Part shown: piece by piece, positions 3,860 to 61,637 of the stretch
Layout: each line of letters begins with the position of its first letter
How positions within the stretch are numbered: position 1 is the first letter of the stretch
The notes under the pieces: generated by a model
Databases searched by the model: none
Told to the model about the DNA's origin: nothing
The model's input: the letters and a program-made list of their open reading frames with translations, nothing else
Source: Vicinamibacteraceae bacterium
Lineage (GTDB): Bacteria; Acidobacteriota; Vicinamibacteria; Vicinamibacterales; Vicinamibacteraceae
NCBI GenBank assembly: GCA_031407765.1
Contig: JANOIR010000077.1
Location: forward strand, 219 to 64,218
Length of the DNA stretch: 64,000 nt
Direction of reading: 5' to 3'
Made by a program: the position numbers and the translations under genes

Positions 3860-3879
3860 GAACTCGGTATCCTAGCAAC

Positions 3880-6741: not shown

Positions 6742-6894
6742 AAGAACATAAAAACGGGGAATTAGTCCGCGAGATGACAAGGCTTTCCGTCTTTGTTTTG
6801 AAATGTAGTAAGCGCTTGAAAATTTGACCGAAAAGCCGGCTCCGGGGCAATCAAAGCAAGTAGAATCCGGTCTTCATCTGGCGGCCGGGGGGCT
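6742..6894 (+). promoter_or_regulatory. AT-rich intergenic region; candidate promoter/leader for sapC-tolC-giant ORF
   Basis: This is the only sizeable non-coding, visibly AT-enriched stretch in the first 54 kb (taaaagaacataaaaacgg..., ttttgaaatgtagtaagcgcttgaaaatttgacc). It contains two TTGAAA -35-like hexamers. No -10 box could be assigned with confidence. Confidence 0.3.
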
Positions 6895-9104: not shown

Positions 9105-9121
9105 CGGAAAAACTGGCGAAC

Positions 9122-12100
9122 TTGACCCGCATACCGGCAATGGAAGCGATGAAGAACCTGGCGGCACGGCTCGCCCGGGGATTCCGAGCCTCCAGGCTGC
9201 AGCCGCCGATGCGCCGCAAGGCGATGTTCGAGGCGCTCGAGCAGCGCTTCATGCTGTCCGCGGAACTGGTGGTTCCCCCGCCGCCGCCGCCCGCGGCGCA
9301 GGCTCCCGCGCTGGAGGCGCCACTCAATCCGACCGTGCCGTCGACGATCACGGCGGCCTCGACGCCGATCCAGTTCACGCTGCAGGCGCAGGCGGAGCTG
9401 CCGGAAGCGGCCGAAGCCCAGCCGGATCCGGGCGGGGTACAGGCGACCACGCCCGAGATCGAGGCGGTCGACACCTCGCTGCCGAAGGCGAACAACGCTG
9501 CTCTCGACGAGCTGAGCGAAGCGGCGGCAGGTACCACCGCCGCGCCGGCCGCGGTGGCCCAGGAGGCGCCTGCGCCGATGAATCTCGCGGCGTACGCGGC
9601 CTCGGTCCAGAATCGCCCGGCGCCGATGCAGGTCATCATCATCGACCCGTCGGTGCCGAACTACGAGGCGCTGGTCAAGAGCCTGCTGAACTACGGTGCT
9701 GCGCAGGCCCCGGCAACTCCCGTGCAGGAGAGTGTCGCCTCCAGCAGCAAGCCTGAGGAAACGTCCATCTCGCTCCCTGCCGTATCAACCGTCCAGGATG
9801 CGCAGGCGCAACAACCGTCGCGCGGCGACGAACAGGTGGTGCAGGTCCAGCGCATCGGCGACATCGAAGTGGTGGTGCTCGATGCGCGCTTCGACGGCGT
9901 CGACCAGATCACGGACATCCTTTCCGCGCACCATGGCCTTGGCGCGGTGCAGGTGCTTTCGCACGGCGGCAGCGGCGCCCTGCGGCTGGGCACGAGCCAG
10001 CTGAATGAAGCCAAGCTGGAGCAACAGAAGGCGCGTATCGCGGGCTGGGGCGCGGCGCTGCGTCCGGACGGCGACATCCTCCTGTATGGCTGCGACGTCG
10101 CCGCGGGCGCGGGCGGCCTGGAATTCGTCGGCAGCCTCGCCGCGCTCACGGGCGCCGACGTCGCGGCTTCGACCAACCAAACCGGCGCTGCCGGCCTGGG
10201 CGGCGATTGGGCGCTCGAGTACCACACCGGCATCATTGAATCGCAGCCCCTGTTTACGGAGAGCGTGCTTTCGAGCTACGCCTACCTCCTCGCCAACCTG
10301 ACGGGTACTGCGGGCGCCGACACCCTGACCAGCACCGGCGCTGCCGACGTGTTGACCGGCCTGGCGGGCGACGACATCTACAAGTTCAACAACGCCTGGG
10401 GCAGCGACACGGTCACCGAGCTCGCCGCCGGCGGCATGGACACGCTGGACTTCTCGTCGGTCACGGCGAACCTGACCTTCACGGTGAATGCCGATGGCAG
10501 CGTCGATGTCGCGAACGGTACTGGAAGCGCGCTTCACGCGACCGGCGTCGAAAAGCTGATCGGCGGCCTCGGGGTCAACACCTTCCGTTTCCTGGACCAG
10601 GCCGTCTTCAACGGCAGCATCGTCGGCAAGAGCGGCGGCCAGGACGTGTTCGACTTCGGCACCTTTGCCAGCGCACTCAACTGGGCCGTCACCGACGTCC
10701 AGGCGGGCAGCGTCAACGGCGGGTCGGTCACGGCTGCCTTCACCAATATCAGCAGGTTCACCGGCGGCACCGCGACGGATACCCTCACCGGCCCTGACGG
10801 GAGCGACACCTGGGACATCTGGAACGTCACCGGCGTGGGCGCCGGTAACGCAGGCGGCACCACGTTCACCGGCATGGAGCAGCTCGAGGGGCGCGGCACG
10901 AACATCCTGAACTACTCCGCCTACGGCAGCGCGGTATCGGTCGACCTGGATGGGTCCACCGCCACCGGCTTCAGCCAGATCACCGGCTTCCGCGGCGCGT
11001 ATGGCTCGCAGCACGACGACGTCCTTGTCGGGAACAGCGAAGACAACGTGTTTTCGGGCGGCGGCGGCAGCAACACGATCAACGGCGGCGGCGGCAGCGA
11101 CACCGTGTCCGAAGCGGCGGACGTCAACTTCGTCCTGACCGACGGCTCGCTGACGATCGGCGGGATCGGCACCGATTCGCTGAGCAACATCGAGCAGGCT
11201 TACTTGGTCGGCGGCGCCGGTTCGAACACGTTCGACATCACGGCCTTCACCAAGGGCGCAGTCACGTTGAACGGAGGCGCCGGCAACGACACCTACAAGC
11301 TCGGCAACACCTGGAACACCCACAGGATCACGGAAGCCGCGGCCAGCGGACAGGACACGCTCGATTTCTCCGCGGTCTCGTCGCTTGCGCTGACCTTCAC
11401 CGTCAACGCCGACGGCACGGTCGACGTCACCAACGAGGCGCTGCCCGACGCCGTCATCTACACGACCAACGTCGACAACCTCATCGGCGGCCAGGGCGCG
11501 ACCGCCAGCAACAGCTTCGTGTTCTTCGAGGATGCCGTCCTCGCGGGAACGGTCAGCGGCAAGGTCGGCGGGCAGGACACGCTCGACTACAGCGACTACG
11601 GCACCGCGGTCACGGTCAACCTCGCCACGGGCGCCGCGACGGCCACCCAGGGCGCAAGCAATTTCACCAACGTGATGGGCGGCTCGGCCGCCAGCACGCT
11701 GGTCGGCTGGAATGCCGCGAATACCTGGACCATCACGGAACACACCAGCGGCACGGTGGCGAGCGCGAGCGGCACTGTCACGTTCAGTGGCCTGAGCAGC
11801 ATCGCCGGCGGCAGCGCGGCCGACGTGTTGACCGGGCCGATCGACGGCGATGTCTGGAATATCAACTCCACGGGCGCCGGCAACGTGGATGGCCTGAATT
11901 TCAGCGGCATGGAGACGCTGGCCGCGCGCGGCACGATCAACGTGCTGGATTACGCCGCATACCCGACCGCGGGCAGCGGCATCGGCGTTACCGTCGACCT
12001 CGCGTCCGGCTCGGCGACCGGCTTCGTCGCCATCAGCGGTTTCCGCGACGTCTGGGGTTCCGCATACAACGACACGCTGCGCGGCGACGGCGCCAACAAC

Positions 12101-15100: not shown

Positions 15101-18100
15101 GACGGCAAGGCGACCGTGGGCGGCACGGTCACCGTCAATGCCCTGCAGCGCAAGGAGGCGTTCGGCGGCGAGCTGCCGACGACGCAGAACGCGGCGATCG
15201 ACACGGCGCTGGCGAAGAAGCAGTCGATCACCGCCTCGAAGATGTTCCTGCTGCCGACGCTGGACGGCGGCGTCAAGGCGACGACCAACATCGGCTCGAA
15301 CACCAGCGGCGACATCCTCGACGACATGGAGTCGCGCGCGACCACCGAGGTGGCGCTGGGCGCCATCAAGGCGCTGAAGGCGATCGGCAGCGGCCTCGGG
15401 GCGATCTACCACGCGATCGTCGACTCGTCCGCGGAGAAGGCTGACGCGAAGGCGAAGGCGGAGAAGGACAAGGCCGCGGTGAAGCCGGACAAGCCGGCGG
15501 AAACCCGCAAGCCCAACTCGCTGCAGTTCGGCGGCGCGGTCGCCTGGTCGGAGGACACGAACACCGTCACGGCGCGGATCGGCGACGGCAACTCCGCCGA
15601 CCATAACGCCCTCGGCGCCGACGTCGATGCGATCGGCTCGATCACGGTCCGGGCGACGGTCTCGAACCGTCCCGACGTCAGCGCCACGGCGCTGACCCTC
15701 GACAAGGGCAAGGCGAAGAAATTCCCGACCGACCCGGCCGCGAAGGCCGGCGCGGTGGCCTTCAACTACGGGCTGTACGAGAACAATGCCAACGCCTACA
15801 TCAACGGCGACGCGCAGGTGGACGGCAAGGGCACGATCACCGTCAAGGCCGACACGCTCAACCAGATCGATCCGAACAGCCTGTGGGGCGCGAACCTGGT
15901 CAGCCCGTGGAACAAGCAGGCCGACTTCTCCTCCACCGACGGCGTGCAGGCGGTCACGACCAATCAGATCGTCGACAAGGGCGGCGACTGGTACCAGTTT
16001 GTCGGCAGCAACCCGGGCGCCGCCCGCAACCTCGCCACCGAGGACTACACCGACTCGACCAACTGGCAGAGCCTCGGCACGGCGGGGCAGCATCGCACCA
16101 GCACGTTCGTCTCCAACCTGACGACGTACCTGAACAACAACTTCGGCCTGGACAACAACCTCGCCGACACGTGGACGCAGAGCAACGTCACCGGCGCGAA
16201 GTCCGCCATCGCCGGCGCGATCACGGTCCTGCGGCTCGAGCACAGCGCCGACGCGCGCATCAAGAACGGCGCGCGCGTCAACCAGAGCGCGCCCACCACG
16301 AGCACGCGCGACGTCGTGGTCGAGGCGACGAGCGTCAACCAGACCATCAACATCGCCGGCAACTTCAAGTTCCCGTTCGGCACGGTCACGCCAAATCAAA
16401 ACGGCAAGGGCTGGTTCCAGTCCGAGGGCGGCGGCTTCCAGCGCACCCCCGGGGGCAAGGGCGCGGCGGGCGGCGCGTTCATGTTCTTCTTCTACGAGAA
16501 CGACGTCACCGCCAAGATCGAGGACGGCGTCCTGCTGAACGCCGACAGCCTCAAGGTCAACGCCGATGGCTTCAACCTCGGCGTCGCGCTCGGCGCCTCG
16601 GGCGGGCAGTCCGACGGCACCGCCTTCAACGGCGCGTTCATCTACAGCCAGGTCGTGGATACCACGCTGGCCCAAATCGACAACGGCGCGACCATCACGG
16701 TCGGCAACCGCGCGGTGTCGGATCCGGCTGCGTCGAACGCCTCGGTGCTGGTCAAGGCCAACAACAAGACGTTCCTCGTGACGGTCGCGGGCGCGGTCGC
16801 CGTCTCGGATGAAACCGCGGTAGGCGCCTCAGGCGCGATCAACCGGATCGTGCGCGACACCGAGGCATTCATCGGCAACCGCCTGGGCGACAATTCGGTC
16901 ACTACCCGGCACACGCTCGAATCCGCCGGCGATGTGCGCGTGATGTCCAAGAACGAAGGCGTCGTGGCGGCCGTCGCCGTCGCCGGCGCCAAGTCCTCGA
17001 GCAAGCCGCCCGGCGCCGACGCCGCGGACAAGGGCACGCAAGGCACGCCCAAGCCCGACGGCACCTCGACCAATGACGCCGGCAAGCAGCCGACCAAGGA
17101 CGGCAAGTATCCGGACGGGCTGCTGTCGGAACTGACGTCCAACCCGCTCTTCCAGAGACTGGGGCTGGCCTCGGGCTCGACGCAGACCACGCCGCCACAG
17201 GCCACCCCGCCGGCCCAGCCGCCGGCGCAACCGCCGGCCCCGCCGCCGGCCACGCCGCCGCCGGCCGCGAACCCGAACACGCCCAAGTCGGGTCTCGGCT
17301 TCTCTGGCGCCGTGACCATCAATATCGCGGACGACAACTCGCGCGCCTATGTGCGCAACAGCGGCGACGTCAAGGTCACCAACGGCAGCCTGATCCTCAG
17401 GGCCGAGAACGCCGCGCACGTCGTTTCGATCGCCGGCGGCGTCGCCTACGCTACCAATGACGGCTCTAAGCCGGCGCGGGCGATTGGCGGCGCGGTCGGG
17501 GTCAACGTGGTCACGGGAACCACCGAGGCCTTCCTCGACGGCGCCACCCTGGTCAATACCAAGGGGCTGGACTTCGACGCGCTGCGCTCGGGCTCGATCG
17601 TCGCCGTCACGGCCGGCATCACCGGCGCGACCGGCAAGACCGGCCAGGCCGGCGCGGGCTCGATCGCGTTCACCCGCACCAGCTACACGACGCACACCGG
17701 CCTGTCGAACACCACGACCGGCGCAGGCAAGATCGACGGCGCCGTATCGCTGAACGCGCAGGACGACACCAACATCGTGGTCGTGGCGGGCGCGGGCGCC
17801 TTCGGCGGCAAGACCGGCGTCGGCATCAGCGCCGCCTACAGCCAGATCGAGAACGACATCTCCTCCACCGTCGACACGGTGGCCAACTTCAGGCACACGG
17901 GCAGCTTCGACGTCCTGGCCAGTACCGATGCCGACATCGTCGCCGTCACCGCCTCGGCCGGCGTGGCGACCGGCGGCGGCGGGGCCGAGGGCATGGGCGT
18001 CGGCGGCACGCTGACGATCAATTTCATCGACAACACGGTCAGCGCGAAGGTGCTCAACAGCAGCACCACCGCGGATTCGAGCGGCGACATCACGGTCTTC

Positions 18101-21100
18101 GCGCACGACACCTCGTCCATCTATGCGTTCTCGGGCGGCTTTGCATTCGGCAAGACTTCCGGGTACGGCGCGGCCTTCGCCCTGAACTACATGGGCAACA
18201 GCGTCACCGCCGCGGTCGAGGGCTCGACACTGCTCGAATCCTCCGGCGCGCTCAGCGTCAAGGCCGAAGCCGACGGCACCATCGTCAGCGTCGCGGTCGG
18301 CGGCGCCGGCTCGCAGAAGTCCGCGATCGCCGGCTCGGTCGCGGCGAACATCCTCACCAACTCGGCCGACGCGCACATCAGCGGCGGCTCCAACATCCGG
18401 CTGCTGGGCCCGATCACGGTCAAGGCGGCCGACCGGCTGTTGCTGACGTCGGTGGCCGGCGGCATCGGCGCCTCGTCCGGCGCCCGCGGCGTCGGCGTCT
18501 CGGCCAGCTGGAACCGCATCAGCTCCGGCGTGGCCGCCTACATCGACCATTCCGACGTGGAGTCCACCGGCTCGTCCGTCAGCGTGATCGCGACCTCGAG
18601 CCCGCTGCTGGTCGGCATCGGCTTCGCGGGCGGCGGCTCCAAGGGCCAGGGCGGCGCGGGCGTGCTCACCATCAACTCGATCGCCAACACGGTCGACGCG
18701 CACATCACGACGAGCTCCAACGTCACCGCGTTCGGAAACGTCACGGTCAGCGCGAGCGAAGCCGCGTCGATGTACGTCGGCGCGCTGGCCATCGCGGGCT
18801 CCGCCAACGGCAACGCGATCGGCGGGCTCCTGGCCTACAACTACGTCGGCAGCAGCTCGGATCCGGCCGATCCGAACGTCGTCAGCCTCGCCGACGGTGC
18901 CGCCGAAGGCACGAAGGCCGCCAAGGTCAGCGGCGCCGATACCGCGACCGCGAGCAACGTCAAGGCCTACATCGATTCGTCCAAGGTGATCGCGGGCGGC
19001 AGCGTGCTGGTGGTGGCCGGGTTCGACGATCCTTCCGCGCAGGCGGATCCCGGCCCGCTGATCTCCGCGACCAAGACGGTCAACCCGGCTTCGGCGGTGA
19101 CGACGACCGGCGACACGATCCGGTTCGCCGGCGCGCATGGCTTGAAAACCGGCGACGAGGTCCTCTATCACAAGGGCGCGGTCGGCGATGTCGCGGTCGG
19201 CACGCTGGTCGACGACGGCACCACCAAGTACTACGTCATCAAGGTCGACGACAACACGGTGAAGCTCGCGACGTCCCAGGACAACGCGCTCTCGCATGTC
19301 GCCATCGCCCTCGGTTCCGCGGGCTCCGGCACCAGCCACAACATCGTTTCCACCGCGACCGGCGCCACCGCCCTGACGTTCAATCCGGGAACGGCCGTCA
19401 CGACCACGGTGGCGCACGCCGACACGATTTCCTTCGGCAGCGCGCACGGTCTGAAGACCGGAGACGCGGTCGTCTACCGTAACGGCGGCGGCACCAGCAT
19501 CGGCGGCCTGGCCCAGAACGAGACCTACTACGTCATCAACGTTGACGCGACGCACATCAGGCTCGCGGCGACGCAGAGCGATGCGCTGGCGTCCACCGCG
19601 GTGCCAGTGTTCCTGAGCGCCGGCGCAACCGGCACGGCGCACAGCCTGCTGGTCAAGCGCGACAGCGTCGACGCACGGGGCATCACGCTCGCCCTGCCGA
19701 GCTCGATCGGCGGCCAGATCACGAGCGTCACGGCGGCGGGCGCCGGCGGCAAGACCTCTTCGGGCGCGGGCGCGGTATCGCTCAACTTCGTGCGCATGAA
19801 CGTGGACGCGCACATTTCGAACATCACCGGAACGAACCGGGTGCAGGCGGGTTCCGGCTCGGTCAGCGTGCTCGCCAACGACACTTCGCACGTCAACTCG
19901 GGCACCGGCGCGCTCGGCCTCGCGCTCGGCAAGAGCACCGCGCTCAACGCGTCGATCGGCGTCAACGACATCCGCAACACCGTCACCGCCCATATCGACA
20001 GCGCAAAAGTGGTGTCGACGGGCGGCAACGTGGCCGTGGGCGCGACCGAGACGGCGCGCAACATCAACGTGGTGATCGGCGGCAGCGTCTCGAACGGCGG
20101 CATCGCGCTCGGCGGCTCGTTCGCGATCAACACCATCAAGAACACGGTCGGCGCGCACATCAAGACCGCCTCCGACGTCACCGCCAACGGCAGCGTGTCG
20201 GTGCTGGCGAAGGACACCGCCTCGATCGCCACGCTGGCCGGCAACGTCGGCGCTTCGTTCAGCAAAGGCACCGCCGGGGTCGGCTTCGCCTTCGCGGTGA
20301 ACGACGTCAGCGATACCGTCACGGCGCTGATCGACGGCTCGGCCGTGACCGCGACGACCGGCGACATCCTGGTCGACGCGACGTTCGGCAAGCCGAGCGC
20401 GCTGCCGGCCGGGCTGGACGTGCAGATCGCCGCCATGGCGGTCAGCGGCGGCGGGTCTTCGACCATCGCCGGCGCCGGCTCGGTGGCGCTGAACTGGATC
20501 CGCAACACCGTCGACGCGAAAATCTCCAACATCGGCGACCTGCGGGCCGGCGCGCCGCACGAGCTGGTGGCCGGCGGCAAGCTCAGCGTCACCGCAAGCG
20601 ACTCCTCGACCATCAACTCGCTCGCGGGCGCGATCGCGATCTCGGGCATCGGCGCGAAGGCCTCGTCGGGCGCGATCGGCGCCTCGGTGGCCTACAACTT
20701 CCTCGGCGGCGACCCGAACAATCCGGGCAGCACCAATACCAACGTGGTGCGGGCGTCGATCGAGAACGTCACCGGCAGCATCCGGGCCGGGCAGGTGATC
20801 GTCAAGGCGACCTACGACGGCAGGATCAACAACATCACCGTGGCCGGCGCGGCGGCCGGAAGCTTCGCGCTGGGCGGCGCGGTATCGGTCAACCGCATCC
20901 GCAACACCACGGACGCGCACATCTCGGGTTCGACCAACATCGCCACCACGGGAACGCTGGCGCAAAGCGTCCTGGTGAATGCAGTGGACAACGCCGCCAT
21001 CTGGGTCCTGGCTGGCGGCGTGGGCATTGCGATCCCGAAGACGGGCGCTACCGGCATCGCGGCGGGCGTTTCCGCGGCGACCAACGACGTCGCCGAAACC

Positions 21101-45100: not shown

Positions 45101-48100
45101 GACTACCTGACGCTCGGCCTGTACGATGAATCCGGCAGCCTGGTCGCGCGGATGAATCCGTTCCTGACCCCGGGCTACCTCGACCTCGGCAGCAAGGCCA
45201 ACAACTACTTCACGGTCGATTCGGGCGGCAACTACGTCCTCAACCAGGCGGTGGCCGACCCGCAGCTCTATTACGAGTTCACCGATCCGGACAAGAACTA
45301 CCAGATCCGGGCCGAGTCGTACCGCCACTACCTGGCCGCCAGCCCGTACAGCGACGGCTACCTCGGCGTGGTCTCCAGCGGCCAGTCCTACGACCTGGTG
45401 GTGGCGATCCAGAACCACGAAGTCAACCGCGAGGCGATTTCGCTGGTCGGCAAGACGATGACCTTCATGGACGGCACCGGCAAGGGCCAGAGCGCGAACG
45501 TGATCGCCTACGACCCGCTGACCAGCACCTACACGCTCGACAAGCAGCTCACCAACCCGTCGACCCTGCTCGTGGGTTCGGGCTTGACGACGGGCATGTT
45601 CTCGTCGTACCAGATCGATTACTCGATGCAGAGCGAGTTCCCGGGCTACTCGTCGAACTTCGACACCTTCGAAGTGGTGCTCACCGGCCGGCCGGGCGAC
45701 GTCACCACGGTCGACGTGGTGCCGCAGGTGACCGGCAGCTACAACTCCGACAAGGCCTTCTCGGCGCGTGACGGCTACGGCCTGCACGAGGCGGTGCAGG
45801 TCGACGTCGCGACGCCGCAGGCGAAGATCAAGCTCGCGTACGTCGACGCTGCGGGCAACGCGGTCACGAGCGTCGCAGGCGTCGAGACCTGGGTGCTGAC
45901 CCTGGGCGGTACGACGCTGGCGGAATCGACCTTCAGCTCCGCGACCGTCGCCGGGACCACGTTGACGGCCATCGCGACGGACCTGATCACGCAGGTCAAC
46001 CTGGCGAACATCGGCTACGTCGCGAGCAACGTTGGCGAGAACATCCTCCTGACCCGCTACAACGGCGACCGCCAGTCCTTCGTCGCCAAGCTCGCGGTGA
46101 AGGTCGGCAGCGGTTCGAGCGCGGTGCCCGATACCAAGGGCGCGATCGGGATCACCCAGTCGGACGCCAACAAGCAGCTGACCATCAGCCTCACCGGCGA
46201 GCCGCGGGTCGGCGAAGACTGGAAGGTCACGATCACGTCCGGCGCGTTCACCAGGACCTACACGCAGGCGGTCGGATTCGGCGACGAACTCGCCGACATC
46301 GCCGAGCACCTGAGCGCGCAGATCAAGGCCGAGAGCAGCGTCAACTTCCGCACGCTGCTCAAAGGGCGCGAGATCGTCGTCACGCGCGTGGACGGCGGCG
46401 TGATCACGTCCGCCAGCGCCGCGATCACCCCGGACAGCCGCGGCAGCGCCGCGGTCACCGCACAGCTCGTGTTCTCGAACGTGAACGGGGCCCTGAACGC
46501 CTGGAACATCCCCCAGAAAGTCGTCGTCACCGCGGTGGACGACCAGGTGATCGAGGGCGGCGACCTGAAGGTGTTCCCGGCGATGGACGAGCACGTGAAC
46601 CGCATCCGCGGGCCGCTCGTGATCCAGGGCGGCATCATCCACACCGAGGACAACGCCCTGCGCAATCCGTTCATGCTGCCGGGCGAGAACAACAACCCGC
46701 TGATCGAAGGCAGCACCACCGCCGACGCGGCGTCCGCCGGTAACACCCTCACCGACATCAACGCGGTGCACTACGACCCGCTGCGCGGCCAGATGCCGGG
46801 CTTCGACCCGCGCATGGACACCAGCACCACGGGCTTCCTCTACGACATGACCGTGGTGACCGGCGTCGGCACCGGCATCACGCAGCACGTCGAGGCGCTC
46901 ACCGGCACCGGCGTCGCGATCAAGTCCGAGACGCTCGGCACGGCGTTCTCCGCCTCGATCAGCGTCACCAGAAGCGATGGCGTCACTGTCGGCACGGGCT
47001 CCGGCACCATCAGCGGCACGGGTACTTCGGCCACCACGTACTCGAATGCGACGCTGGTGCTCGAAGGCGCGGTGTTCAAGGGCCAGGAATGGAGCATCCG
47101 GCTCAACGGCAGCACCGGCCCGACCTACACCTACATTGCGGGCTCGCGCCCCGGCGGTGGGCCGACCGACGATGTGCTCACACTGGACGTGGTGGCGCAA
47201 CGCCTCGCCCAGCTCATCAATGCGACCCCGCCGGCCGGCGTCGCGGCGACTACCGGCACCTCCATGCTCAAGCTGACCAGCACCACCGGCGTGAGTATCG
47301 ACGTGCTGAAGGGGCGCGCGCGCCTGAGCGATACGATCGCCACCGGCGCCACAAACTGGGAGCTGGCCCAGATCCAGCTGGCCGGTTCCCCTATCGACGG
47401 CTCCGTTACCGCGGGCGATCGCTGGAAGATTACGCTCGGTACCGCGGACTTCGTCTACATCGTTTCGGCCGGCGACACCCTCGCCAAGGTCGCGCGCGGG
47501 CTCGCCGACCAGGTCGACCAGGCGCTCGCCTACCACGCCGACGTCAAGCTCGACACGGTGCGGTTCACCTCGACGTGGGGCGCGGCGCTGACGAGCGGCA
47601 CCGGCTACTTCATCAGCCCGGTCAACAGCAACATCCTGGCGGTCGAAGCCGACCAGGTGGACGTGCTCAACGTCTACAACCGCAACAGCGTCTCGAACGA
47701 CGTCGGCACGCTGACCGAGAACCGGCTCTACGGCTTGGGCATGGGCCCGGACAGCGTGGTCGGCGGCAAGGCGATGAACGGCGGCATCACTTACGCCGGC
47801 CTGGAGCAGGTCAATCTCAGGCTGGGCTCGGGCAACGACCACATCGTCGTCGAGTCGACCCATCAGGGCGCCACGACGATCAGCGGCGCGGCGGGCGACG
47901 ATTGGATCGAAGTGAAGAAGGTGTCGGGCCACACCACGCTCGACCTTGGCACCAGCGTGACCACCGGCAACCGGGTGGACGTGGGCAGCGCCGACAATCG
48001 CGTCGACCAGGTCACGGGCCTCCTCGACATCATCGGCGGCGTCCAGGTGGTCAACCAGGCGCCGACCACGGTGCAGCTCGACACGGTCAACGTCAACGAC

Positions 48101-51100
48101 TCGGGCGACACCAACGCCAACACCGGCACTCTCACCGCCACGACGCTGACCGGGCTCGACATGGCCTCGGTCGAGGAAATCCAGCTGGTGCGCGTGCAGG
48201 CCAAGTCGGGCACCTTCCGCCTCACTTACACGACGCCGAACGCGACGCCGCTGCCGGTTCCGGTGACCTTCACGCAGGCCGATTTCGCGACCGCGGGCGT
48301 CGCCGCGGGCAAGGTGCAGGCCGCGCTGCGCAGCCTGTACGACAACACGACCGACATTCTCGTATTCGAAGACAGCCGCGAGGCGCTGGACGACGGCGTG
48401 CACGCCGTGACCTACAGGGTGGTGTTCACCGGCAATCTCGCCGGCCGCAACATGGAAGAGATCATCTGGGGCGAGACGCGCGCGGCGGCGGCGGCGACGC
48501 TGCAGGCCTTCGCGGGCGAGTCGATCGACGTCGGCGTCACGACGCTGCGCCAGGGCACCCCGACGCCCGCGATCGGCAACGTGCAGACGGTGACCGTCAA
48601 CGGCGCCGGCAGCTTCACGCTTACGATCAATGTTCCGGTTCCTGGCGGCACCCCGCTGCAGACCACGCAGACCACTGCTTCGATCCTGGTCGGCGCCTCG
48701 GCGGACGAGGTGCTCAAGATCCTCGACCTTATCCTCAACCCGAACGGCTCTGTCCTCGATCCGCTGAACGATCGCAACGACAACTCGAAGCCATACACGA
48801 ACAACGTCGCCGTCACGAAGGTCGGCAACGTCTACACGATCGCATTCCAGGGCGAGCATCGCGCCAAGGCGATCGTCGCCACCACCGGCAGCGTCGAAGT
48901 CGCCACGCGCACCAGCGGCATCAACTACTACGGCCTCAATACCCTCAATGTGACGCTCGGCTCGGGCGCGGATATCTTCAACGTCCAGGGCACGAGCGCG
49001 ATCACCAACCTGAAGACCGCCGGCGGCAACGACCAGGTCTTCGTCTCCTCGAGCGCCAATGTGCAGACCGACAGCGTGGTGACGCTGCGCAGCGGCGATC
49101 CGGCGGTCCTGGGATACAGCCTGGCCGAAGCGGCCGTGTCGGTCGTCATCGAAGTCAGGAACTCGAGCGGCGCGGTCGTGAAGTCCTTCACCCTTGGCCA
49201 GACGGCGGCGGGCGCCTATTCGCAGGCCTGGGACGGAACCGACACCCTGGGGCAAGCGGTAGCCGCAGGCACCTACACCTACTCGGTGACTGGCGTGCGC
49301 TCGACTGGCGCGCTGACGCAGGCCTCCGGCGACACGCCCGCGCTGGCCTTCAGCCTGGCAGAGGCGGCGGATTCGGTCAGCGTCGTCGTGAAGGATGCGA
49401 CCGGAGCCGTGGTCAAGACCATCGCTCTGGGCGTTACTGCCATAGGCGCGCACGCGCCGGTATGGGACGGCACGAATGCGGCGGGGGTGCTGGCGCCCTC
49501 GGGCCGATACACCTACACGGTGACCGCTACGCGCGCCAACGCGACGACCTTCGCCGGAATTGTCTCGACGTTCGCCGGCGTCGCAACGACGGCCAACGTA
49601 TCCGGGTTCCTGGCCGGCAACACCTTCGCCTTCCGGGGCGAAGGGGGCCATGCGCCGGCGCTGACGTATGAACTGTCGGCTGGCGTTGCCCAGGCCCTGG
49701 TCAAAATCTACGACACGACCGGAACGCTGGTGCGCACCATGACGGTGAATTCGCCGGCTGCCGGAACGCACACCACCACCTGGGACGGCAAAAACGAGAC
49801 GAACCAGCGCCTTGCGGCCGGCACTTACACCTACCAGGTGACCAATGCGCTTGGCGCGATCATCGGCACCACCGCCATGAACGGCACGCTGGACGCGGTG
49901 AACGGCCTGCTTAATATTGACTCGGGCAGCGGCACGAACGCGCTGATGGTGAGCGACGCGGGCTCGCGCGCGCCCAACACGGCGACCCTGAGCAACAGCC
50001 AGATCCTCGGCCTTGCCTCGGCCAACATCAATTACGTGGCTACCGCGAGCGCGCGCAACCTCGCCGGCACCGTTGTCGACACGCTCGGCGCCACGGGAAC
50101 CTTCGCCGGCGGCATCACGGTGTGGAGCGGCTACGGCGTCGACAACGTGACGGTCGCCAGCACCCGCCTTGAGACCGACGCGACGAAGCGGACGATCACG
50201 ACCCTGAACACGGGGCTGGGCGGCGATACCGTCGCCGTGAGGCTGGACGCCGTTGCCGGCTTGCCGGGCGACGGGATCGCGGACGGATTCTTCGCGCTGA
50301 ACACGCAGGGGCCGTTCGACCACGATTTCCTCGTCGGCCCCGCGCTCGGCGCCGACGACGACAAGGTCGACGCCAGCCTGTCGTCGCTGCCGCTCGTCAT
50401 CTTCGGCGGCCAGGGCAAGGATGAGATCGTCGGCGGCAGCGGCAACGACATCATCTTCGGCGACCGCGGCCGCGTGGAGTACACCGATTCCAGCGGCGCG
50501 GTGGTGCAGGTGCTCGGCTGGGGCGGCCTGGGCGACAGGACCGACGGCCTCGTTCACCTGGGCGGCGTCGCTCGCTCGGTGAACCTCGAGGTGGGCGCGA
50601 ACGACTACATCGATGGCGGCGAAGGGCGCAACGTCGTGATCGGCGGCAAGAATGGCGGCGGCGCGCTGCTCCATGCGGCGGCCGGCAGCTACGACGGTGA
50701 CTACCTGTGGGTCGGATCCGGCAACGACGTCGTGCTGGGCGACAACGGCCGGGTAGCGTTCAACGCGGCCGGCGACGTAACGCGCCTGGAGACCACGGAC
50801 GTCGATGCCTCGACTGGCGGCAACGACACGATCCGCGCCGGCGAGGGGGACAACCGGATTCTCGGCGGGATGGGCGTCGACACGATCACAGTGGGCAGCG
50901 GGAAAGACGCCATTCTGGGCGACAACGGCTTCATGCAGATGGACGTCAACGGCGGCAATTTCGAGACAATCGCCACGAACTCGCTCGCCTCGACGGGCGG
51001 CAGCGCCACCAGCCTGGGCGACGCGGACATCATCACGGGCCAGGACGGCAAGAAGATCGTGCTGGGCGGCGACGGTGGCGACACGATCAAGCTGGGCGAT

Positions 51101-54100
51101 GGCACGGCCGGGGTGAACGAGCACATCGTGCTGGGCGACAACGGGGTGGTGACCTTCGTGCCGCTGAGCGCGGGCGTGGCTGGCGGCGCGGGCAAGGTCC
51201 TGAGCTACGAGACAACCGACACGGTGGCGGGCACGGGCGGCATCGACCGGATCACGCTGGGCGATGGCACGGCGACGATCCTGGGCGGGATGCACGGCGA
51301 CATCATCATCACCGACACCGGCACGACGGTCGGTGGCGACGGGGCGGACACGATCCTGGGCGACAACGGCCTGGTGCAGATGGACATCCAGGGCGGCAAC
51401 TACGCGCTGATCGAGACCAAGTCGCTGGCCTCGACCGATCCGACGAGCCTGATCACGAGCCTGGGCGGGGACGACCAGATCACCACGGGCGATGGCAAGA
51501 AGATCGTGCTGGGCGGCGACGGGTTCGACCAGGTGACGATGGGCGCGGGCGATCACATCGTGCTGGGCGACAACGGCATCGTGACGTTCGTGCCGCTCAG
51601 CGCGGGCGTGGCCGGTGGCGCGGGCAACGCGCAGAAGTTCGAGACGACGGACACGCTGGACATCAGCTCGGTCGGCGGCACGGGCGATCGGGACAACATC
51701 ACGATCACGGGCAACGGCAACAACACGATCCTGGGCGGCATGGGGGTCGACACGATCATCCTGCAGAGCAACGTCGCGGGCGGCGCGGACGTGGTGCTGG
51801 GCGACAACGGCGTGGTGGAGATGGACGCGAAGGGCGTGAACTTCGCGCAGGTCACGACCAAGTCGTTGACCTCGGCCGGTGGCGGGACGGCGGACCAGGG
51901 CGCGGGGGATATCATCACGGCGCTCGACGGCAAGAAGATCGTGCTGGGCGGCGATGGCGGGGACACGATCAGGCTGGGCGATGGCACGGCGGGGACGAAC
52001 GAGCACATCGTGCTGGGCGACAACGGCTCGGTGACGTTCGTGCCGATGCTCGATGGGCTGGGCAACCCGAGCGTCGGCGCGGGCAAGGCGCTGAGCTTCA
52101 AGACCACGGATACGGTGCAGGCGACCGGCGGCATTGACCGCATCACGGTGGGCGACGGTACGGCGACGATCCTGGGCGGGATGCACGGGGACTTCATCAC
52201 CATCGATACGGGCACGGCGCCGGGCGCAGACGGGGCCGACACCATCCTTGGCGACAACGGCCTCGTGCAGATGGACACCCAGGGCGGCAACTACGCCCAG
52301 ATCACGACCTACTCCCTGGACTCGGCGGGTGGTGGCGTGGATGAGCTGGGCGGCGCCGACCAGATCGTGACCGGCGACGGCGCGAAGACCATCCTCGCTG
52401 GCGACGGCGGTGACACAGTCACCATGGGCGAGGGCACTCATACCGTTCTGGGCGACAACGGCAGCATCGGCTACGTCGCCCTGGGCCAGACCGGCGCCGG
52501 GAACATCCTGACGATCGAGACCGCGGATACGCTTGCGGCCACCGGCGGCAACGACCAGATCAACTCCGCCAATGGCACCAACGTGATCCTCGCCGGCATG
52601 GGGGCCGACACGGTCACCACCGCCGACGGCAGCGACATGATCCTCGGCGACAACGGCAGCGTGCAGATGGACGCCGCCGGCCAGGTGTTCCGCCAAGTGG
52701 ACAGCACGGAGACGCTGCAGGGCACCGGCGACGCGATCACCGCTGGCAACGGCGCGAAGACCGTCGTGGCCGGTTTCGGCGACGACACGGTCGATGTCGG
52801 CACCGGCACGCACACGCTGCTCGGCGACAACGGCAGCCTCAGCTACGGCCCGACCGGCATCCTTTCGTACGTCACGACCACCGAGCCAACCCGGGGCGGC
52901 GATGACGCGATCGAAGCCGCCGGCGGCGATACGCTGGTCATCGCGGGCCTGGGAGACGACACCGTCACCACGGGCGCGGGCGTGGACGTGGTGGTGGGCG
53001 ACGACGGCCGGATGTCCTTCGACGCGGCCGGGCGCCCCGCGATGGTGGAATCCACCCAGCCCGGCATCGGCGGCACGGACACCATCCATTCGGGCGAAGG
53101 CAACAATGTCCTGATCGGCGGCTTCGGGCCCGACAGCCTGGTTTCGGGCGGCGGAGTCGACATGCTCATGGGCGACGGCGGCCGCGTCACCTACGCCGGC
53201 GGGGCGCTCTACCTGGTGGAGAGCATCGATTCCTTCATCGGTTCGAGCGACTTCCTCGATGGCGGCGCAGGCCAGAACGTCCTGATCGCCGGCGACGGCG
53301 ACGACGTGATGGTTGGCGACCTCACCAACGACATCCTCGCGGGCGATTACGCCGCCGTGACCTTTGACGCTTCCGGCCACGTGACGTCGGTGATGCGCTT
53401 CGGCGGCCTGGGCGACCTGATCGCGCAGGTGCAGGACAGCCTGTTCACCTACACGCGTCCCGACGACGCGGCAGCGGCGGACCCGCAGGTGTATCGCGGC
53501 AATCTCATCCTGATCGGCGACGCGGCGAGCGAGCTCCGGCGCCTGTACGTGCTTGGCGACTACCTGTCTCTGCCGGTCTTCTCCGGGTTCGATTTCGCGG
53601 CGGCCCAGGCCCAGCACCACAGCAGCTCGAGCGTGGCCTCCCAGCCGGCCTCCTCGGCGACCCCCGGCAGCGAGTCCGGAGCCCCCGCGAGCGAGCCGGG
53701 TGCCGCCCCTGCCGGCGAGGAAGGGCAGGGCGAGCAAGGCGGGCAAGGTCCGGCCGAAGGCGCGCAAGAGGGCACGCCGTCCGCGGCAACGTCGAATGAA
53801 TTCGGCGGCGACAGCACCGGCCTGCAGATACTGGAACTGCCGCAGGTCGAAGGGAACGCGGCCGGCAGCTTTACGCTCGGCACCACTGGCCAGTCGACGC
53901 GCGACCAGCCGACGCGAGACCAAGCGGATCGGCAGCAACTGGCGCTCGCCGGCCTGGTCGGCGCGCAGGCCTGGTATGGCCGCCGGCAGGAGAGTTCCGC
54001 GCCGCGCATGACGGGCGCCACGACGGCGACGTCCGCGGGCAACAGGGGCGCCTGGATCCGGCCCGCCGGAGAAGCCGCGGCCGCGGGCGAGGTCATGCTC

Positions 54101-54280: not shown

Positions 54281-54305
54281 GTCGCCGGCGGTACCCGGCG
54301 GCACA

Positions 54306-54361: not shown

Positions 54362-54697
54362 ATGGCCACCAAGAACCCCGCCTCGGGCGAAGCCTCTACG
54401 CTTGATACCGCGAAGCGCAACATCGATCCACAGAGAGTCGTCTGGGATGATTCGCGGCTGAACACCTCATACTCGAACGTCTGCAACGTTCTCGGCTCGC
54501 GCGAGGAGATCACGCTGCTGTTCGGCGCCAACCAGGCCTGGCATTCCGGCCAGAAGGAAGTAAAGGTCATGCTCTCGGACCGGATCATCCTCAACCCCTA
54601 TGCGGCCAAGCGGCTGCAGGCCCTGCTGCAGCGGGTCCTGAAGGAGTACGAAACCCGCTTCGGCGAACTGAAGATCGAGGGCTCAGCGCAGAGCTGA
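54362..54697 (+). CDS. Small DUF3467-like protein (111 aa)
   Basis: ATG preceded by AAGGAG at 54351-54356. The core YSNVCNVLGSREEITLLFG...VKVMLSDRIILNPYAAKRLQALLQRVLKEYETRFGEL resembles the DUF3467 consensus as I recall it. No signal peptide or TM segment. Confidence 0.6.
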   Translation: MATKNPASGEASTLDTAKRNIDPQRVVWDDSRLNTSYSNVCNVLGSREEITLLFGANQAWHSGQKEVKVMLSDRIILNPYAAKRLQALLQRVLKEYETRFGELKIEGSAQS

Positions 54698-56558: not shown

Positions 56559-56593
56559 GTTGAGATGAGGGTTCCCCGCGTGAGAAATCCGGC

Positions 56594-60731: not shown

Positions 60732-60747
60732 ATTCAGGAGCAGATCA

Positions 60748-61566: not shown

Positions 61567-61637
61567 CGGGCGACGGCGGCAGGCTGCTCGGGCTGCTGCG
61601 CGGCCAGCGTTTCGAGGGCTTTGAGAAATCCTTCAAG

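What the first reader, a model, noticed from the sequence alone, without database searches (positions are those of the whole stretch)
9122..54280. Single 45-kb ORF encoding a protein of about 15,050 aa
Seen: one stop-free frame of 45,159 nt with consistent coding bias and protein-like motifs from end to end. It starts 17 nt after the tolC stop. Established: bacterial proteins above 10,000 aa are rare and are mostly surface or secreted repeat proteins. Inference: this is a secreted or cell-surface fibre/adhesin-like protein several hundred nm long if extended. Its mixture of repeat types (see the separate findings) is far more heterogeneous than a simple amplified adhesin.
Basis: partly seen in the sequence, partly recalled or inferred. 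Interest (0 to 1): 0.85.

Follow-up and report, generated by a model that had tools for sequence, protein, structure and literature searches.

The report
Giant secreted protein with dedicated exporter
The 45-kb open reading frame is real and encodes a 15,052-residue repeat-rich surface or secreted protein of a catalogued but unstudied class, and it sits inside a conserved, poorly understood export gene cluster that uses a shortened SecA motor instead of the usual ABC transporter.

Summary
Observation confirmed: one ORF at 9122-54280 (+), 15,052 aa, with GC3 of 0.87-0.95 in every 3-kb block and no exact DNA repeat longer than 40 bp. Homologues support the TTG start.

The protein is a mosaic. 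It has an N-terminal LEPR-XLL leader (NF012209), DUF4347, RTX modules at both ends, a 53-aa/254-aa repeat array, about 23 copies of an uncatalogued ~70-aa alpha/beta domain, three FlgD-Ig domains and about 2,900 aa of unique sequence.

The gene lies in an operon-like cluster: SapC, TolC, giant, DUF3467, GAF-HlyD, PqqD-M50 protease-HlyD, truncated SecA-like ATPase, third MFP. No ABC transporter lies in the window. Kamneva et al. (2015) described this module bioinformatically and named no cargo.

In beta-, gamma- and alphaproteobacterial loci, every cassette locus with readable upstream sequence has a very large ORF beside it (9,292-12,918 aa where complete). Each N-terminus I could inspect carries the LEPR-XLL motif.

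Best explanation: the giant is the cargo of this SecA-driven, TolC-dependent route. The mechanism is inferred. It is a new member of a known but uncharacterised kind.

The parts
9122..54280 (+). Giant gene, 15,052 aa (TTG start)
   Evidence: ORF; GC3 0.87-0.95 throughout; start supported by the homologue alignment
9122..9301 (+). N-terminal leader, aa 1-60: about 30 basic residues, then 'RRKAMFEALEQRFMLSAEL', then poly-Pro. The LEPR-XLL motif is at aa 35-56
   Evidence: NF012209, 27.6 bits against a cutoff of 17; E37, E40, R42 and S46 invariant in 11 sequences; weak PF07595 Planc_extracel hit; the motif occurs only once in the window
9857..10288 (+). DUF4347 domain, aa 246-389
   Evidence: PF14252, E = 2.5e-50; 111 homologues, nearly all of them N-terminal fragments
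10289..14071 (+). N-proximal RTX-bearing modules, aa about 390-1650
   Evidence: PF00353 hits; RTX-family NCBIfam hits; PDB sequence hits to CyaA and serralysin RTX blocks; self-similarity to the C-proximal RTX modules
16190..28171 (+). 53-aa tandem repeat array organised as a 254-aa super-repeat, aa about 2357-6350
   Evidence: NF012206 LktA_tand_53, at least 39 copies, E down to 4.8e-114; lag-254 autocorrelation; self-HMM finds 24 segments; AF2 model all-beta with 12-17-residue strands, pTM 0.65
28172..34738 (+). Unique region, aa about 6351-8539, with no repeats and no database match
   Evidence: No Pfam, NCBIfam or PDB sequence hit; no internal repeats
37877..47581 (+). About 23 copies of an uncatalogued ~70-aa beta-beta-alpha-beta-beta domain, aa 9586-12820
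   Evidence: Self-HMM; alignment A3; 931 representative proteins elsewhere at E <= 1e-3; AF2 per-unit pLDDT 70-88; no Pfam or NCBIfam hit
48989..49921 (+). Three FlgD-Ig domains plus a CHU_C-like beta-sandwich, aa about 13290-13600
   Evidence: PF13860, E = 1.3e-51; PF13585, E = 2.7e-10; PDB FlgD sequence hits
50099..53401 (+). Nine ~150-aa RTX-bearing modules, aa 13660-14760
   Evidence: Self-HMM; PF00353; this is the part best conserved in relatives' giants
53522..54280 (+). C-terminal tail, aa 14801-15052, low complexity followed by motifs LALAGL.GAQA, LDRR, WLDGALG and IEWG
   Evidence: Conserved only among the betaproteobacterial relatives and not alignable with the alphaproteobacterial giants
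6895..7752 (+). SapC-family protein
   Evidence: PF07277, E = 4.7e-72; SapC also lies inside the cassette in Pseudosulfitobacter and Sinorhizobium
7551..9104 (+). TolC-family outer-membrane channel (mature protein probably starts near 7749)
   Evidence: TIGR01844, 314.7 bits against a cutoff of 225; a signal-peptide-like segment at aa 67-95 of the ORF
54362..54697 (+). DUF3467 small protein (111 aa); a chaperone role is my speculation
   Evidence: PF11950, E = 3.9e-24; found between the giant and the cassette in most loci
54714..56558 (+). GAF-HlyD membrane-fusion protein with one transmembrane helix
   Evidence: Pfam GAF and HlyD_3/HlyD_D23; TM-like segment at aa 344-366
56594..58744 (+). PqqD-like domain, M50/S2P-type metalloprotease (HELGH, NxxPxxxxDG) and HlyD, fused in one polytopic membrane protein
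   Evidence: NF041824 daptide_HExxH, E = 1.1e-46; PqqD, M50 and HlyD Pfam hits; motifs; several TM-like segments; RefSeq orthologues named 'PqqD family protein' and 'site-2 protease family protein'
58737..60731 (+). Truncated SecA-like ATPase (664 aa): NBD1, PPXD and NBD2 only
   Evidence: SecA_DEAD E = 1.3e-101, SecA_PP_bind, P-loop_SecA; aligns only to B. subtilis SecA residues 18-599; GEGKT and DEAD motifs present
60748..61566 (+). Third membrane-fusion protein with an N-terminal signal-peptide-like segment
   Evidence: TIGR01730, 113.8 bits against a cutoff of 94.9; sequence
3880..6741 (+). O-methyltransferase, unknown 284-aa protein and radical-SAM enzyme. This accessory set co-travels with the cassette in some relatives
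   Evidence: Pfam; homologues at 54-72% identity lie directly downstream of the cassette in Actimicrobium and Polaromonas

Best explanation
The ORF is a genuine gene for a 15,052-aa extracellular repeat protein of the LEPR-XLL/DUF4347/RTX class. It is most likely the dedicated cargo of the export machine encoded around it, which consists of TolC (with SapC) upstream and DUF3467, GAF-MFP, PqqD-M50 protease-MFP, a truncated SecA-like ATPase and a third MFP downstream. Proposed mechanism, all of it inferred: the non-hydrophobic N-terminal leader ('RRKxLFEALExRxLLSA') is recognised in the cytoplasm by the PqqD-like peptide-binding domain of the M50-MFP fusion. The M50 metalloprotease domain, which retains its catalytic motifs, removes the leader. 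The SecA-like motor lacks the region that in canonical SecA holds the SecY-inserting two-helix finger. It uses ATP to thread the unfolded chain, N-terminus first, into an inner-membrane and periplasmic conduit made by the polytopic M50 domain and the MFPs, which is docked to TolC. Outside the cell, calcium-driven folding of the RTX modules, which sit just after the N-terminus and again near the C-terminus, prevents back-sliding. The product is a fibre several hundred nm long, made of beta-rich arrays and bead-like domains, that acts in attachment, aggregation or matrix formation.
For: Shown:
(1) The gene is real.
(2) It belongs to named classes: NF012209 above cutoff, PF14252 at E = 2.5e-50, NF012206 repeats, PF00353 RTX.
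(3) Spacing is operon-like: 17 nt after tolC, 81 nt before the DUF3467 gene, 13-35 nt between the next genes, and an 8-nt overlap between the M50-HlyD and SecA-like genes.
(4) The order 'giant 3' end, DUF3467, GAF-MFP, M50-MFP, SecA-like, MFP' is conserved in ten beta- and gammaproteobacterial genome loci wherever the contig extends far enough.
(5) Complete giants of 9,292, 10,417 and 12,860 aa sit next to the cassette in Actimicrobium, Polaromonas and Methylotenera.
(6) At only 47-58% SecA-like identity, alphaproteobacterial plasmids show the same pairing: Methylosinus 8,847 aa, Pseudosulfitobacter 12,918 aa, Mesorhizobium 10,518 aa, Pontibrevibacter 10,603 aa, Sinorhizobium at least 4,977 aa and Rhodobacteraceae M382 at least 4,212 aa.
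(7) Every partner giant whose N-terminus I could inspect has the LEPR-XLL motif, either by sequence or by RefSeq name. DUF4347 was not evident in the first 140-200 residues of the Methylosinus and Mesorhizobium giants, and the C-terminal tail is not shared.
(8) In a complete Burkholderiales genome the cassette is followed directly by a DUF4347 gene.
(9) Catalytic motifs are intact in the M50 and SecA-like proteins.
(10) The M50 domain is homologous to RiPP leader-processing metalloproteases (daptide E = 1.1e-46; YydH/LiaK E = 1.7e-8) and is fused to a PqqD-like domain.
(11) No ABC transporter is encoded in the 64-kb window.
Literature: Kamneva et al. 2015 (PMC4452313) defined this module and proposed SecA_DEAD as the ATPase and M50 as the membrane component, with no cargo named. 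West-Roberts et al. 2023 (bioRxiv 10.1101/2023.11.21.568195) found scaffold- and wing-less SecA domains fused to Omnitrophota giants and proposed self-export.
Against: There is no experimental evidence for any step. Gene adjacency does not prove a cargo relationship. The PqqD Pfam hit in the window protein itself is below the gathering cutoff (20.7 against 23.4 bits), and the daptide-protease match is below the equivalog cutoff (159.7 against 300 bits). An inner-membrane pore has not been identified; M50 proteases are not known channels. RTX repeats and a C-terminal element conserved among close relatives are also compatible with classical C-terminus-first T1SS export by an ABC transporter encoded outside the window. 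Neither the direction of translocation nor leader cleavage was tested. An adhesive function is only by analogy. About 5,000 aa have no recognisable fold, and both Foldseek searches returned nothing significant.
Confidence: 0.6

Rival explanations
1. It is a classical T1SS giant RTX adhesin of the LapA/MpIBP/SiiE kind. It would be exported C-terminus first by an ABC transporter encoded elsewhere in the genome, using TolC and one of the local MFPs. The SecA-like and M50 genes would have a different or only regulatory role.
For: RTX nonapeptide blocks lie near the C-terminus. A C-terminal ~120-aa element is conserved among betaproteobacterial relatives. TolC and HlyD-family genes are adjacent. 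SapC is associated with T1SS operons according to the Chlorochromatium preprint. Only 64 kb of the genome is visible.
Against: No ABC transporter lies in the window or in the roughly 20 related loci, while the SecA-like and M50-MFP genes are always there. The last RTX block is followed by about 250-300 aa rather than a short terminal signal, and the C-termini of the alphaproteobacterial partner giants are unrelated. The shared element is the N-terminal leader. No LapG/LapD-type genes and no recognisable N-terminal retention module were detected.
Confidence: 0.2
2. The cassette exports or matures a small ribosomally made peptide (RiPP-like) that is processed by the PqqD-M50 protease and modified by the nearby radical-SAM and methyltransferase enzymes. 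The giant gene would be an unrelated neighbour.
For: The M50 domain is most similar to RiPP leader peptidases (daptide, YydH/LiaK) and has a PqqD-like domain. Radical-SAM, O-methyltransferase and 2OG-oxygenase genes lie nearby and partly co-travel with the cassette.
Against: The alphaproteobacterial loci have the giant and the cassette but no annotated radical-SAM gene within 20 kb. The LEPR-type motif occurs only once in the window, on the giant. I did not search for other small precursor genes. A protein-translocating SecA motor fits a polypeptide cargo. The giant is present wherever the upstream sequence can be read.
Confidence: 0.08
3. It is a MARTX-like delivered toxin, in which the RTX-type repeat regions at both ends form a translocation device that carries the central unique region (aa about 6350-8500) into a target cell.
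For: Related RTX-bearing modules flank the protein at aa 400-1650 and 13660-14760, and a 2,100-aa non-repetitive core has no annotation. The Chlorochromatium preprint reports transfer of SapC/TolC-linked giants into a partner cell.
Against: No cysteine-protease, effector or toxin domain was detected anywhere. Most of the length between the RTX regions consists of structural repeat arrays. The relatives come mostly from environmental MAGs and from methylotrophs, rhizobia and marine roseobacters, where no target is obvious.
Confidence: 0.05
4. The giant ORF is an assembly or annotation artefact, or a non-expressed relic.
For: The window comes from a 67.9-kb NCBI contig of unstated quality. Giant repeat genes are often misassembled, and some related loci are fragmented by frameshifts.
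Against: GC3 is uniformly 0.87-0.95 over 45 kb with no stop. The longest exact DNA repeat is 40 bp. Intact 9-13k-aa orthologues lie at the same position in isolate genomes and complete plasmids.
Confidence: 0.04

Closest known systems
RefSeq 'LEPR-XLL domain-containing protein' giants (NCBIfam NF012209), e.g. WP_114295156.1 of Pseudosulfitobacter sp. DSM 107133 (12,918 aa) and WP_205793450.1 of Pontibrevibacter nitratireducens (10,603 aa)
   Same: An N-terminal LEPR-XLL leader within the first ~60 residues. A size above 10,000 aa. The gene lies immediately upstream of the GAF/HlyD, M50-HlyD, SecA-like and MFP genes, with DUF3467 or SapC nearby.
   Different: The body of the protein differs. 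Only the RTX-type modules were recognisable across the betaproteobacterial relatives, the C-termini are unrelated, and RefSeq names other partner giants by different domains, such as LamG-like and Ig-like. At 15,052 aa the window protein is larger than any of the complete partner giants sampled here.
Secondary SecA_DEAD / T1SS-related module of Kamneva, Poudel and Ward 2015 (PLoS One, PMC4452313)
   Same: [quoted passage not shown]
   Different: The paper named no cargo and called the biological role 'completely unknown'. It did not mention RTX or DUF4347. Here the module is flanked by a LEPR-XLL giant, DUF3467 and SapC in every locus examined. That link is my inference from about 20 loci, not a census.
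Classical T1SS giant RTX adhesins (LapA of Pseudomonas fluorescens, MpIBP of Marinomonas primoryensis)
   Same: A very large repeat-rich protein with calcium-binding RTX repeats, TolC and MFP dependence, and a likely extended surface fibre. The two-step retention model is cited. MpIBP structures appear among the non-significant fold hits.
   Different: No ABC transporter and no LapG/LapD-type genes lie nearby. There is a conserved N-terminal leader with a dedicated protease-MFP fusion. RTX modules lie at both ends. The repeat units are not BIg domains.
Omnitrophota and actinobacterial giant proteins with fused SecA_DEAD domains (West-Roberts et al. 2023, bioRxiv 10.1101/2023.11.21.568195)
   Same: A giant protein is paired with a SecA motor that has the DEAD and preprotein-binding domains but lacks the scaffold and wing. 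The authors proposed that this motor helps export the giant.
   Different: In those proteins the SecA domains are part of the giant polypeptide, which also has many transmembrane helices. Here the motor is a separate 664-aa protein, the giant has no convincing TM helix, and export appears to be TolC-linked.
Chlorobium chlorochromatii giants Cag_663 and Cag_665 (bioRxiv 10.64898/2026.03.19.712371)
   Same: Giant proteins without conventional signals, flanked by SapC and TolC homologues. The same preprint describes one secA gene in that genome as recently acquired. Chlorobi are among the phyla carrying the Kamneva module.
   Different: Those proteins are described as haemagglutinin-repeat/beta-helix types, and transfer to a partner cell was shown experimentally.

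Membership tests
LEPR-XLL domain-containing proteins (NCBIfam NF012209) | The LEPRxLL-type motif near the N-terminus scores above the curated cutoff | tested here: met
   27.6 bits against a cutoff of 17, at aa 35-56. The motif here is LEQRFML rather than LEPRxLL. E37, E40, R42 and S46 are invariant among homologues.
DUF4347 (Pfam PF14252) | Domain match above the gathering threshold | tested here: met
   170.9 bits against a cutoff of 24.6, E = 2.5e-50, aa 246-389
Tandem repeat-containing filamentous protein (NCBIfam NF012206, 53-aa repeat) | Multiple tandem 53-aa repeats above the cutoff | tested here: met
   At least 39 matched stretches across aa about 2950-6300; scores of 84-372 bits per 1000-aa chunk against a cutoff of 50
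RTX / classical type I secretion substrates | Calcium-binding GGxGxD nonapeptide repeats | tested here: met
   PF00353 above the cutoff in four regions; PDB sequence hits to CyaA and serralysin RTX blocks
RTX / classical type I secretion substrates | An uncleaved secretion signal in the last ~60 residues, directly after the RTX block | tested here: inconclusive
   About 250-300 aa follow the last RTX module. The tail motifs are conserved only among close relatives and are absent from the alphaproteobacterial partner giants. No sequence model for T1SS signals was available.
RTX / classical type I secretion substrates | A cognate ABC transporter (HlyB type) together with an MFP and TolC | tested here: not met
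   MFPs and TolC are present, but no ABC transporter lies in the 64-kb window or next to the giant in the related loci. One encoded elsewhere cannot be excluded.
LapA/MpIBP-type two-step T1SS adhesins | An N-terminal retention module with a LapG cleavage site, and LapG/LapD-type (BTLCP protease) genes | tested here: not met
   No such domains or neighbouring genes were detected by Pfam or NCBIfam. The retention-module fold was not tested by structure.
Secondary SecA_DEAD / T1SS-related module (Kamneva 2015) | Co-encoded short SecA_DEAD protein, Peptidase_M50-HlyD protein, GAF-HlyD protein and HlyD/biotin-lipoyl protein, optionally with OEP | tested here: met
   All five are present at 54714-61566 and 7551-9104. 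The definition comes from PMC4452313.
Canonical SecA / accessory SecA2 | Full architecture including the helical scaffold, the helical wing domain and the two-helix finger | tested here: not met
   The protein aligns only to B. subtilis SecA residues 18-599 of about 780-840. All SecA and SecA2 NCBIfam scores are below their cutoffs, e.g. 612.6 against 814. The assignment of the missing domains to the unaligned C-terminal part of SecA rests on my own knowledge of SecA structure.
Two-partner secretion (TpsA/FHA-like) exoproteins | An N-terminal TPS domain and an adjacent TpsB (Omp85-family) transporter | tested here: not met
   No haemagglutination-activity/TPS or ShlB/POTRA hits in the giant or its neighbours
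MARTX toxins | A cysteine protease domain and effector domains between the repeat regions | tested here: not met
   No such Pfam, NCBIfam or PDB sequence hits anywhere in the protein

The most novel reading that the evidence does not exclude
LEPR-XLL giants are the long-sought cargo of the secondary-SecA module. Together they would form a distinct, ABC-independent, TolC-dependent secretion pathway for proteins above 10,000 aa. An N-terminal cleavable leader would be read by an RRE-like (PqqD) domain fused to an intramembrane M50 protease and a membrane-fusion domain. A truncated SecA motor would drive N-to-C threading. In some lineages radical-SAM and methyltransferase enzymes might modify the cargo or the leader in a RiPP-like way. 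The weak match to the planctomycete N-terminal motif PF07595 hints that smaller proteins could use the same route.
Probability: 0.4. Interest if true: 0.8.

Novelty: new member of a known kind. Interest (0 to 1): 0.6.

Why it matters
Proteins above 10,000 aa are rare, and how a bacterium moves such a chain across two membranes is largely unknown outside classical T1SS adhesins. This locus pairs a giant with a conserved export cassette whose role has been called 'completely unknown' since 2015 (PMC4452313). It suggests a concrete cargo and targeting signal (the LEPR-XLL leader), a processing enzyme (PqqD-M50) and a motor (truncated SecA). That makes the question testable by genetics in cultured hosts that carry the same cluster, such as Actimicrobium antarcticum, Methylosinus sp. 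C49, Mesorhizobium ciceri and Pseudosulfitobacter. It also links to the independent observation that Omnitrophota giants carry the same kind of truncated SecA domain in cis. Separately, the protein holds at least one widespread domain family (~70 aa, 931 representative proteins) that my Pfam and NCBIfam scans did not match.

Tried and rejected
1. Pfam and NCBIfam scans of the whole giant in 600-1,052-aa chunks found nothing for aa about 1650-2350 and 6350-13250.
2. PDB sequence searches hit only the RTX and FlgD parts. DUF3467 had no PDB relative.
3. AF2 of the 53-aa repeat array, without an alignment, gave pTM 0.65 and pLDDT 61. Foldseek against the PDB found nothing significant (best E = 0.97). 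The beta-solenoid proteins in that list are not evidence.
4. AF2 of a 404-aa unit, using internal copies as the alignment, gave good per-domain but poor global confidence. Foldseek's best E was 0.055. The flagellin, FliD and baseplate outer-domain resemblance is only a hint.
5. The word-indexed homologue search with aa 11215-11618 found nothing. The exhaustive profile search then showed that the domain is widespread.
7. Literature searches for DUF4347, LEPR-XLL, DUF3467 and PF07595 returned no functional studies.
8. Rfam found nothing in the window. The promoter and terminator scan around tolC and the giant's start was uninformative.
9. I considered and rejected TpsA/FHA, MARTX, S-layer protein and NRPS/PKS: no matching domains, and no cysteines or enzyme domains.


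Full report
OBSERVATION. The ORF is exactly as described: 9122..54280 on the plus strand, 45,159 nt, 15,052 codons, first possible start TTG, beginning 17 nt after the tolC-frame stop at 9104. The window has about 68% G+C, a composition in which long spurious ORFs are common. A 4,466-aa ORF lies on the opposite strand of the same DNA, so length alone is not proof of a gene. The codon-position signal decides it. G+C at position 3 is 0.87-0.95 in every 3-kb block of the frame, against 0.47-0.74 at positions 1 and 2. The protein has no cysteine and is rich in Ala, Gly, Thr, Ser, Val, Asp and Asn. The longest exact DNA repeat inside the ORF is 40 bp and only 14 30-mers recur, so collapse or expansion of repeats during assembly is unlikely.

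ANATOMY OF THE PROTEIN. Residues 1-60 form a non-hydrophobic leader: about 30 basic residues, then 'RRKAMFEALEQRFMLSAEL', then a poly-proline stretch. This matches NCBIfam NF012209, 'LEPR-XLL domain-containing protein', at 27.6 bits against a cutoff of 17. It matches Pfam PF07595, 'Planctomycete extracellular', only weakly. E37, E40, R42 and S46 are invariant among 11 aligned sequences. After a variable spacer comes DUF4347 at aa 246-389 (E = 2.5e-50). The rest of the protein is laid out as follows:
- aa about 390-1650: RTX-bearing modules.
- aa about 1650-2350: unique sequence.
- aa about 2357-6350: an array of NF012206 53-aa repeats, at least 39 copies, organised as a 254-aa super-repeat. 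It is predicted to be all-beta with regularly spaced strands of 12-17 residues (pTM 0.65).
- aa about 6350-8540: about 2,100 aa with no repeats and no database match.
- aa 8540-9300: modules of about 120 aa.
- aa 9586-12820: about 23 copies of a ~70-aa unit.
- aa 13290-13600: three FlgD-Ig domains and a CHU_C-like sandwich.
- aa 13660-14760: nine ~150-aa RTX modules, related to the N-proximal ones.
- The last ~250 aa: a C-terminal tail.

The ~70-aa unit is predicted as beta-beta-alpha-beta-beta, with per-unit pLDDT of 70-88. Pfam and NCBIfam did not match it. A profile built from the 22 internal copies finds 931 representative proteins at E <= 1e-3 (70 at E <= 1e-30), usually as many tandem copies in large proteins. 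It is therefore a real and widespread domain family that those two libraries did not match. Neither predicted structure has a significant PDB neighbour.

CONTEXT. Upstream lie a SapC-family gene (E = 4.7e-72) and tolC (TIGR01844 above its cutoff). Downstream, tightly spaced, lie five genes:
- a DUF3467 gene (E = 3.9e-24);
- a GAF-HlyD membrane-fusion protein;
- a polytopic protein that fuses a PqqD-like domain, an M50/S2P-type metalloprotease (HELGH and NxxPxxxxDG intact) and a HlyD domain;
- a 664-aa SecA-like ATPase (GEGKT and DEAD intact);
- a third MFP with a signal-peptide-like N-terminus.

The SecA-like protein aligns only to residues 18-599 of B. subtilis SecA. It therefore has NBD1, the preprotein-binding domain and NBD2 but lacks the C-terminal part of SecA. 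By my own knowledge of SecA structure, that missing part holds the helical wing, the two-helix finger that inserts into SecY, and the C-terminal tail. The M50 domain is most similar to RiPP leader-processing intramembrane proteases (daptide family E = 1.1e-46; YydH/LiaK E = 1.7e-8). No ABC transporter is encoded anywhere in the window.

COMPARATIVE EVIDENCE. Ten genome loci recovered with the M50-HlyD protein come from Burkholderiales, Methylophilaceae and Acidiferrobacterales MAGs. They keep the order 'RTX-type 3' end of a large ORF, DUF3467, GAF-MFP, M50-MFP, SecA-like, MFP' wherever the contig extends far enough. On long contigs the upstream gene is 9,292 aa in Actimicrobium antarcticum (an isolate), 10,417 aa in Polaromonas and 12,860 aa in Methylotenera. 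A tblastn of the SecA-like protein against plasmids found the same cassette at only 47-58% identity in Alphaproteobacteria, again beside giants:
- Methylosinus pMSC49a: 8,847 aa, with DUF3467 and TolC.
- Pseudosulfitobacter: 12,918 aa, named by RefSeq 'LEPR-XLL domain-containing protein', with SapC inside the cassette.
- Mesorhizobium ciceri: 10,518 aa.
- Pontibrevibacter: 10,603 aa, also named 'LEPR-XLL'.
- Sinorhizobium chiapasense: at least 4,977 aa, with SapC.
- Rhodobacteraceae M382: at least 4,212 aa.

The Methylosinus and Mesorhizobium giants are named after other domains, but their N-termini read '...FDTLEPRVLLNAD' and '...FEALEPRLLLSAD'. In contrast, the C-terminal ~120 aa are conserved only among the betaproteobacterial relatives and do not align with the alphaproteobacterial giants. 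DUF4347 was not evident in the first 140-200 residues of those two alphaproteobacterial giants. The one element shared by all the partner giants I examined is thus the N-terminal leader. A complete Burkholderiales genome has the cassette followed directly by a DUF4347 gene. The M50-HlyD family is large, with at least 7,900 90%-identity clusters at E <= 1e-5.

WHAT IS KNOWN. Kamneva, Poudel and Ward (2015, PMC4452313) described this module as 'secondary SecA_DEAD' with Peptidase_M50/HlyD, GAF/HlyD and HlyD/biotin-lipoyl proteins, sometimes with OEP. [quoted passage not shown] They proposed SecA_DEAD as the ATPase replacing the ABC transporter and M50 as a possible membrane component. They stated that the biological role is 'completely unknown' and named no cargo. 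The only other paper I found that uses their term is a 2017 study of microbial co-occurrence. West-Roberts et al. (2023) found that Omnitrophota giants, and some actinobacterial ones, carry fused SecA_DEAD and preprotein-binding domains without the scaffold and wing, and suggested self-export. A 2026 preprint on Chlorochromatium reports SapC- and TolC-flanked giants and one secA gene described as recently acquired in that genome. I found no functional literature on LEPR-XLL, DUF4347 or DUF3467. The link between LEPR-XLL giants and this module is visible in RefSeq annotation, but I did not find it stated in the searched literature.

MECHANISM. Shown: the gene is real, its domain content is as listed, the gene neighbourhood is conserved, the leader is conserved, the catalytic motifs are intact and the SecA is truncated. 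Inferred: the giant is the cargo. Its leader is bound by the PqqD-like domain, by analogy with RiPP recognition elements, and cut by the M50 protease. The SecA-like motor threads the unfolded chain N-to-C into an MFP-TolC conduit. DUF3467 may act as a holdase, which is speculation. Calcium-dependent folding of the RTX modules, placed right after the N-terminal domain and again near the C-terminus, ratchets the chain out. The mature product is a long beta-rich fibre. From typical rises per residue of beta-solenoids and bead-like domains, I estimate a length of several hundred nm. The main rival is classical C-terminus-first T1SS export by an ABC transporter encoded outside the window. It cannot be excluded from 64 kb, but it does not explain why the SecA-like and M50 genes always accompany the giants, nor why the N-terminus rather than the C-terminus is the shared element.

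ACCESSORY GENES. An O-methyltransferase, an unknown 284-aa protein and a radical-SAM enzyme lie upstream in the window (3880-6741), and a P-loop kinase-like gene lies downstream (about 62348-62911). All four have homologues at 42-72% identity directly after the cassette in Actimicrobium and Polaromonas. No radical-SAM gene is annotated in the alphaproteobacterial loci. They may modify the cargo or be unrelated passengers. This was not resolved.

VERDICT. The protein is a new and unusually large member of a catalogued but uncharacterised class, so the gene itself is not a new kind of thing. The interest lies in three points: the probable cargo-machine relationship with an ABC-less, SecA-driven, TolC-linked exporter; the N-terminal leader paired with an RRE-protease; and the thousands of residues of unannotated domains. 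Interest is 0.6. The most novel reading not excluded is a distinct secretion pathway for giant proteins, with probability about 0.4 and interest 0.8 if true.

Noticed in passing
window 1686-6741 (+) and about 62348-62911 (+): A putative 2OG-Fe(II) oxygenase (1686-2342), an unknown 380-aa ORF, an O-methyltransferase (3880-4911), an unknown 284-aa ORF (4908-5762) and a radical-SAM enzyme (5749-6741) lie upstream of SapC. The OMT, the 284-aa protein, the rSAM enzyme and the P-loop kinase-like gene downstream of the cassette all recur directly after the cassette in Actimicrobium (L011) and Polaromonas (L012) at 42-72% identity. This suggests a lineage-specific modification module linked to the system. 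The 2OG oxygenase and the 380-aa ORF do not recur there.
   Followed up: partly
window about 61570-62339 (+): The ~800-nt stretch between the third MFP and the kinase-like gene reads as a plausible protein ('...LLRGQRFEGFEKSFKMARGSLLAERVLFGVPRAG...LYKVYLEYARRYHG...') inside ORF 60924..62339. Pfam finds nothing in it. A gap of similar size exists at this position in L001 and L004, so it may be a conserved unknown gene.
   Followed up: no
window 40904-54304 (-), and other minus-strand ORFs of 1,000-2,300 aa between 9785 and 40900: Very long antisense ORFs (up to 4,466 aa) overlie the giant gene. They are most likely shadow ORFs caused by the extreme GC3 of the sense frame, not genes, and they could mislead automatic gene callers.
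   Followed up: partly
protein P0132 (518 aa, JGI metagenome contig of 14,853 bp): This predicted protein starts with a LEPR-XLL leader and DUF4347 and ends with the C-terminal part of the SecA-like protein ('...MAGRGTDIKLGPGVAEVGG...VLSFSGRPE'). It looks as if the whole giant body and the cassette genes up to SecA had been deleted or mis-joined. It is either an assembly chimera or a natural deletion between the two ends of the locus.
   Followed up: no
L016 (CP070653.1, complete 3.64-Mb Burkholderiales genome), 3032-12092: A variant layout. The cassette (GAF-MFP, M50-MFP, SecA-like, a 444-aa MFP with a Cds6_C domain) comes before a DUF4347 gene called at only 256 aa, followed by ORFs of 247 and 125 aa. 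This is either a much smaller cargo or a degraded or frameshifted one.
   Followed up: no
window 14-1675 (+): The window opens inside a molybdopterin oxidoreductase of the formate dehydrogenase alpha type (TIGR01591, E = 1.5e-174, below the equivalog cutoff, aligning to model positions 141-672). It is ordinary housekeeping context and appears unrelated to the cluster.
   Followed up: no
L021 / L024 (Mesorhizobium ciceri plasmid NZ_CP088148.1), record 9466-11674: A CBASS anti-phage system (cGAMP-activated phospholipase and a nucleotidyltransferase) lies about 5 kb upstream of the giant gene on this plasmid. The association is probably coincidental.
   Followed up: no
RefSeq annotations in L019, L020, L021 and L026: The truncated SecA-like gene is inconsistently and sometimes wrongly named in RefSeq: 'prepilin peptidase', 'DEAD/DEAH box helicase' or 'hypothetical protein'. 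The M50-HlyD fusion is variously called 'PqqD family protein', 'site-2 protease family protein', 'PqqD family peptide modification chaperone' or 'hypothetical'. This hides the module from keyword searches.
   Followed up: yes
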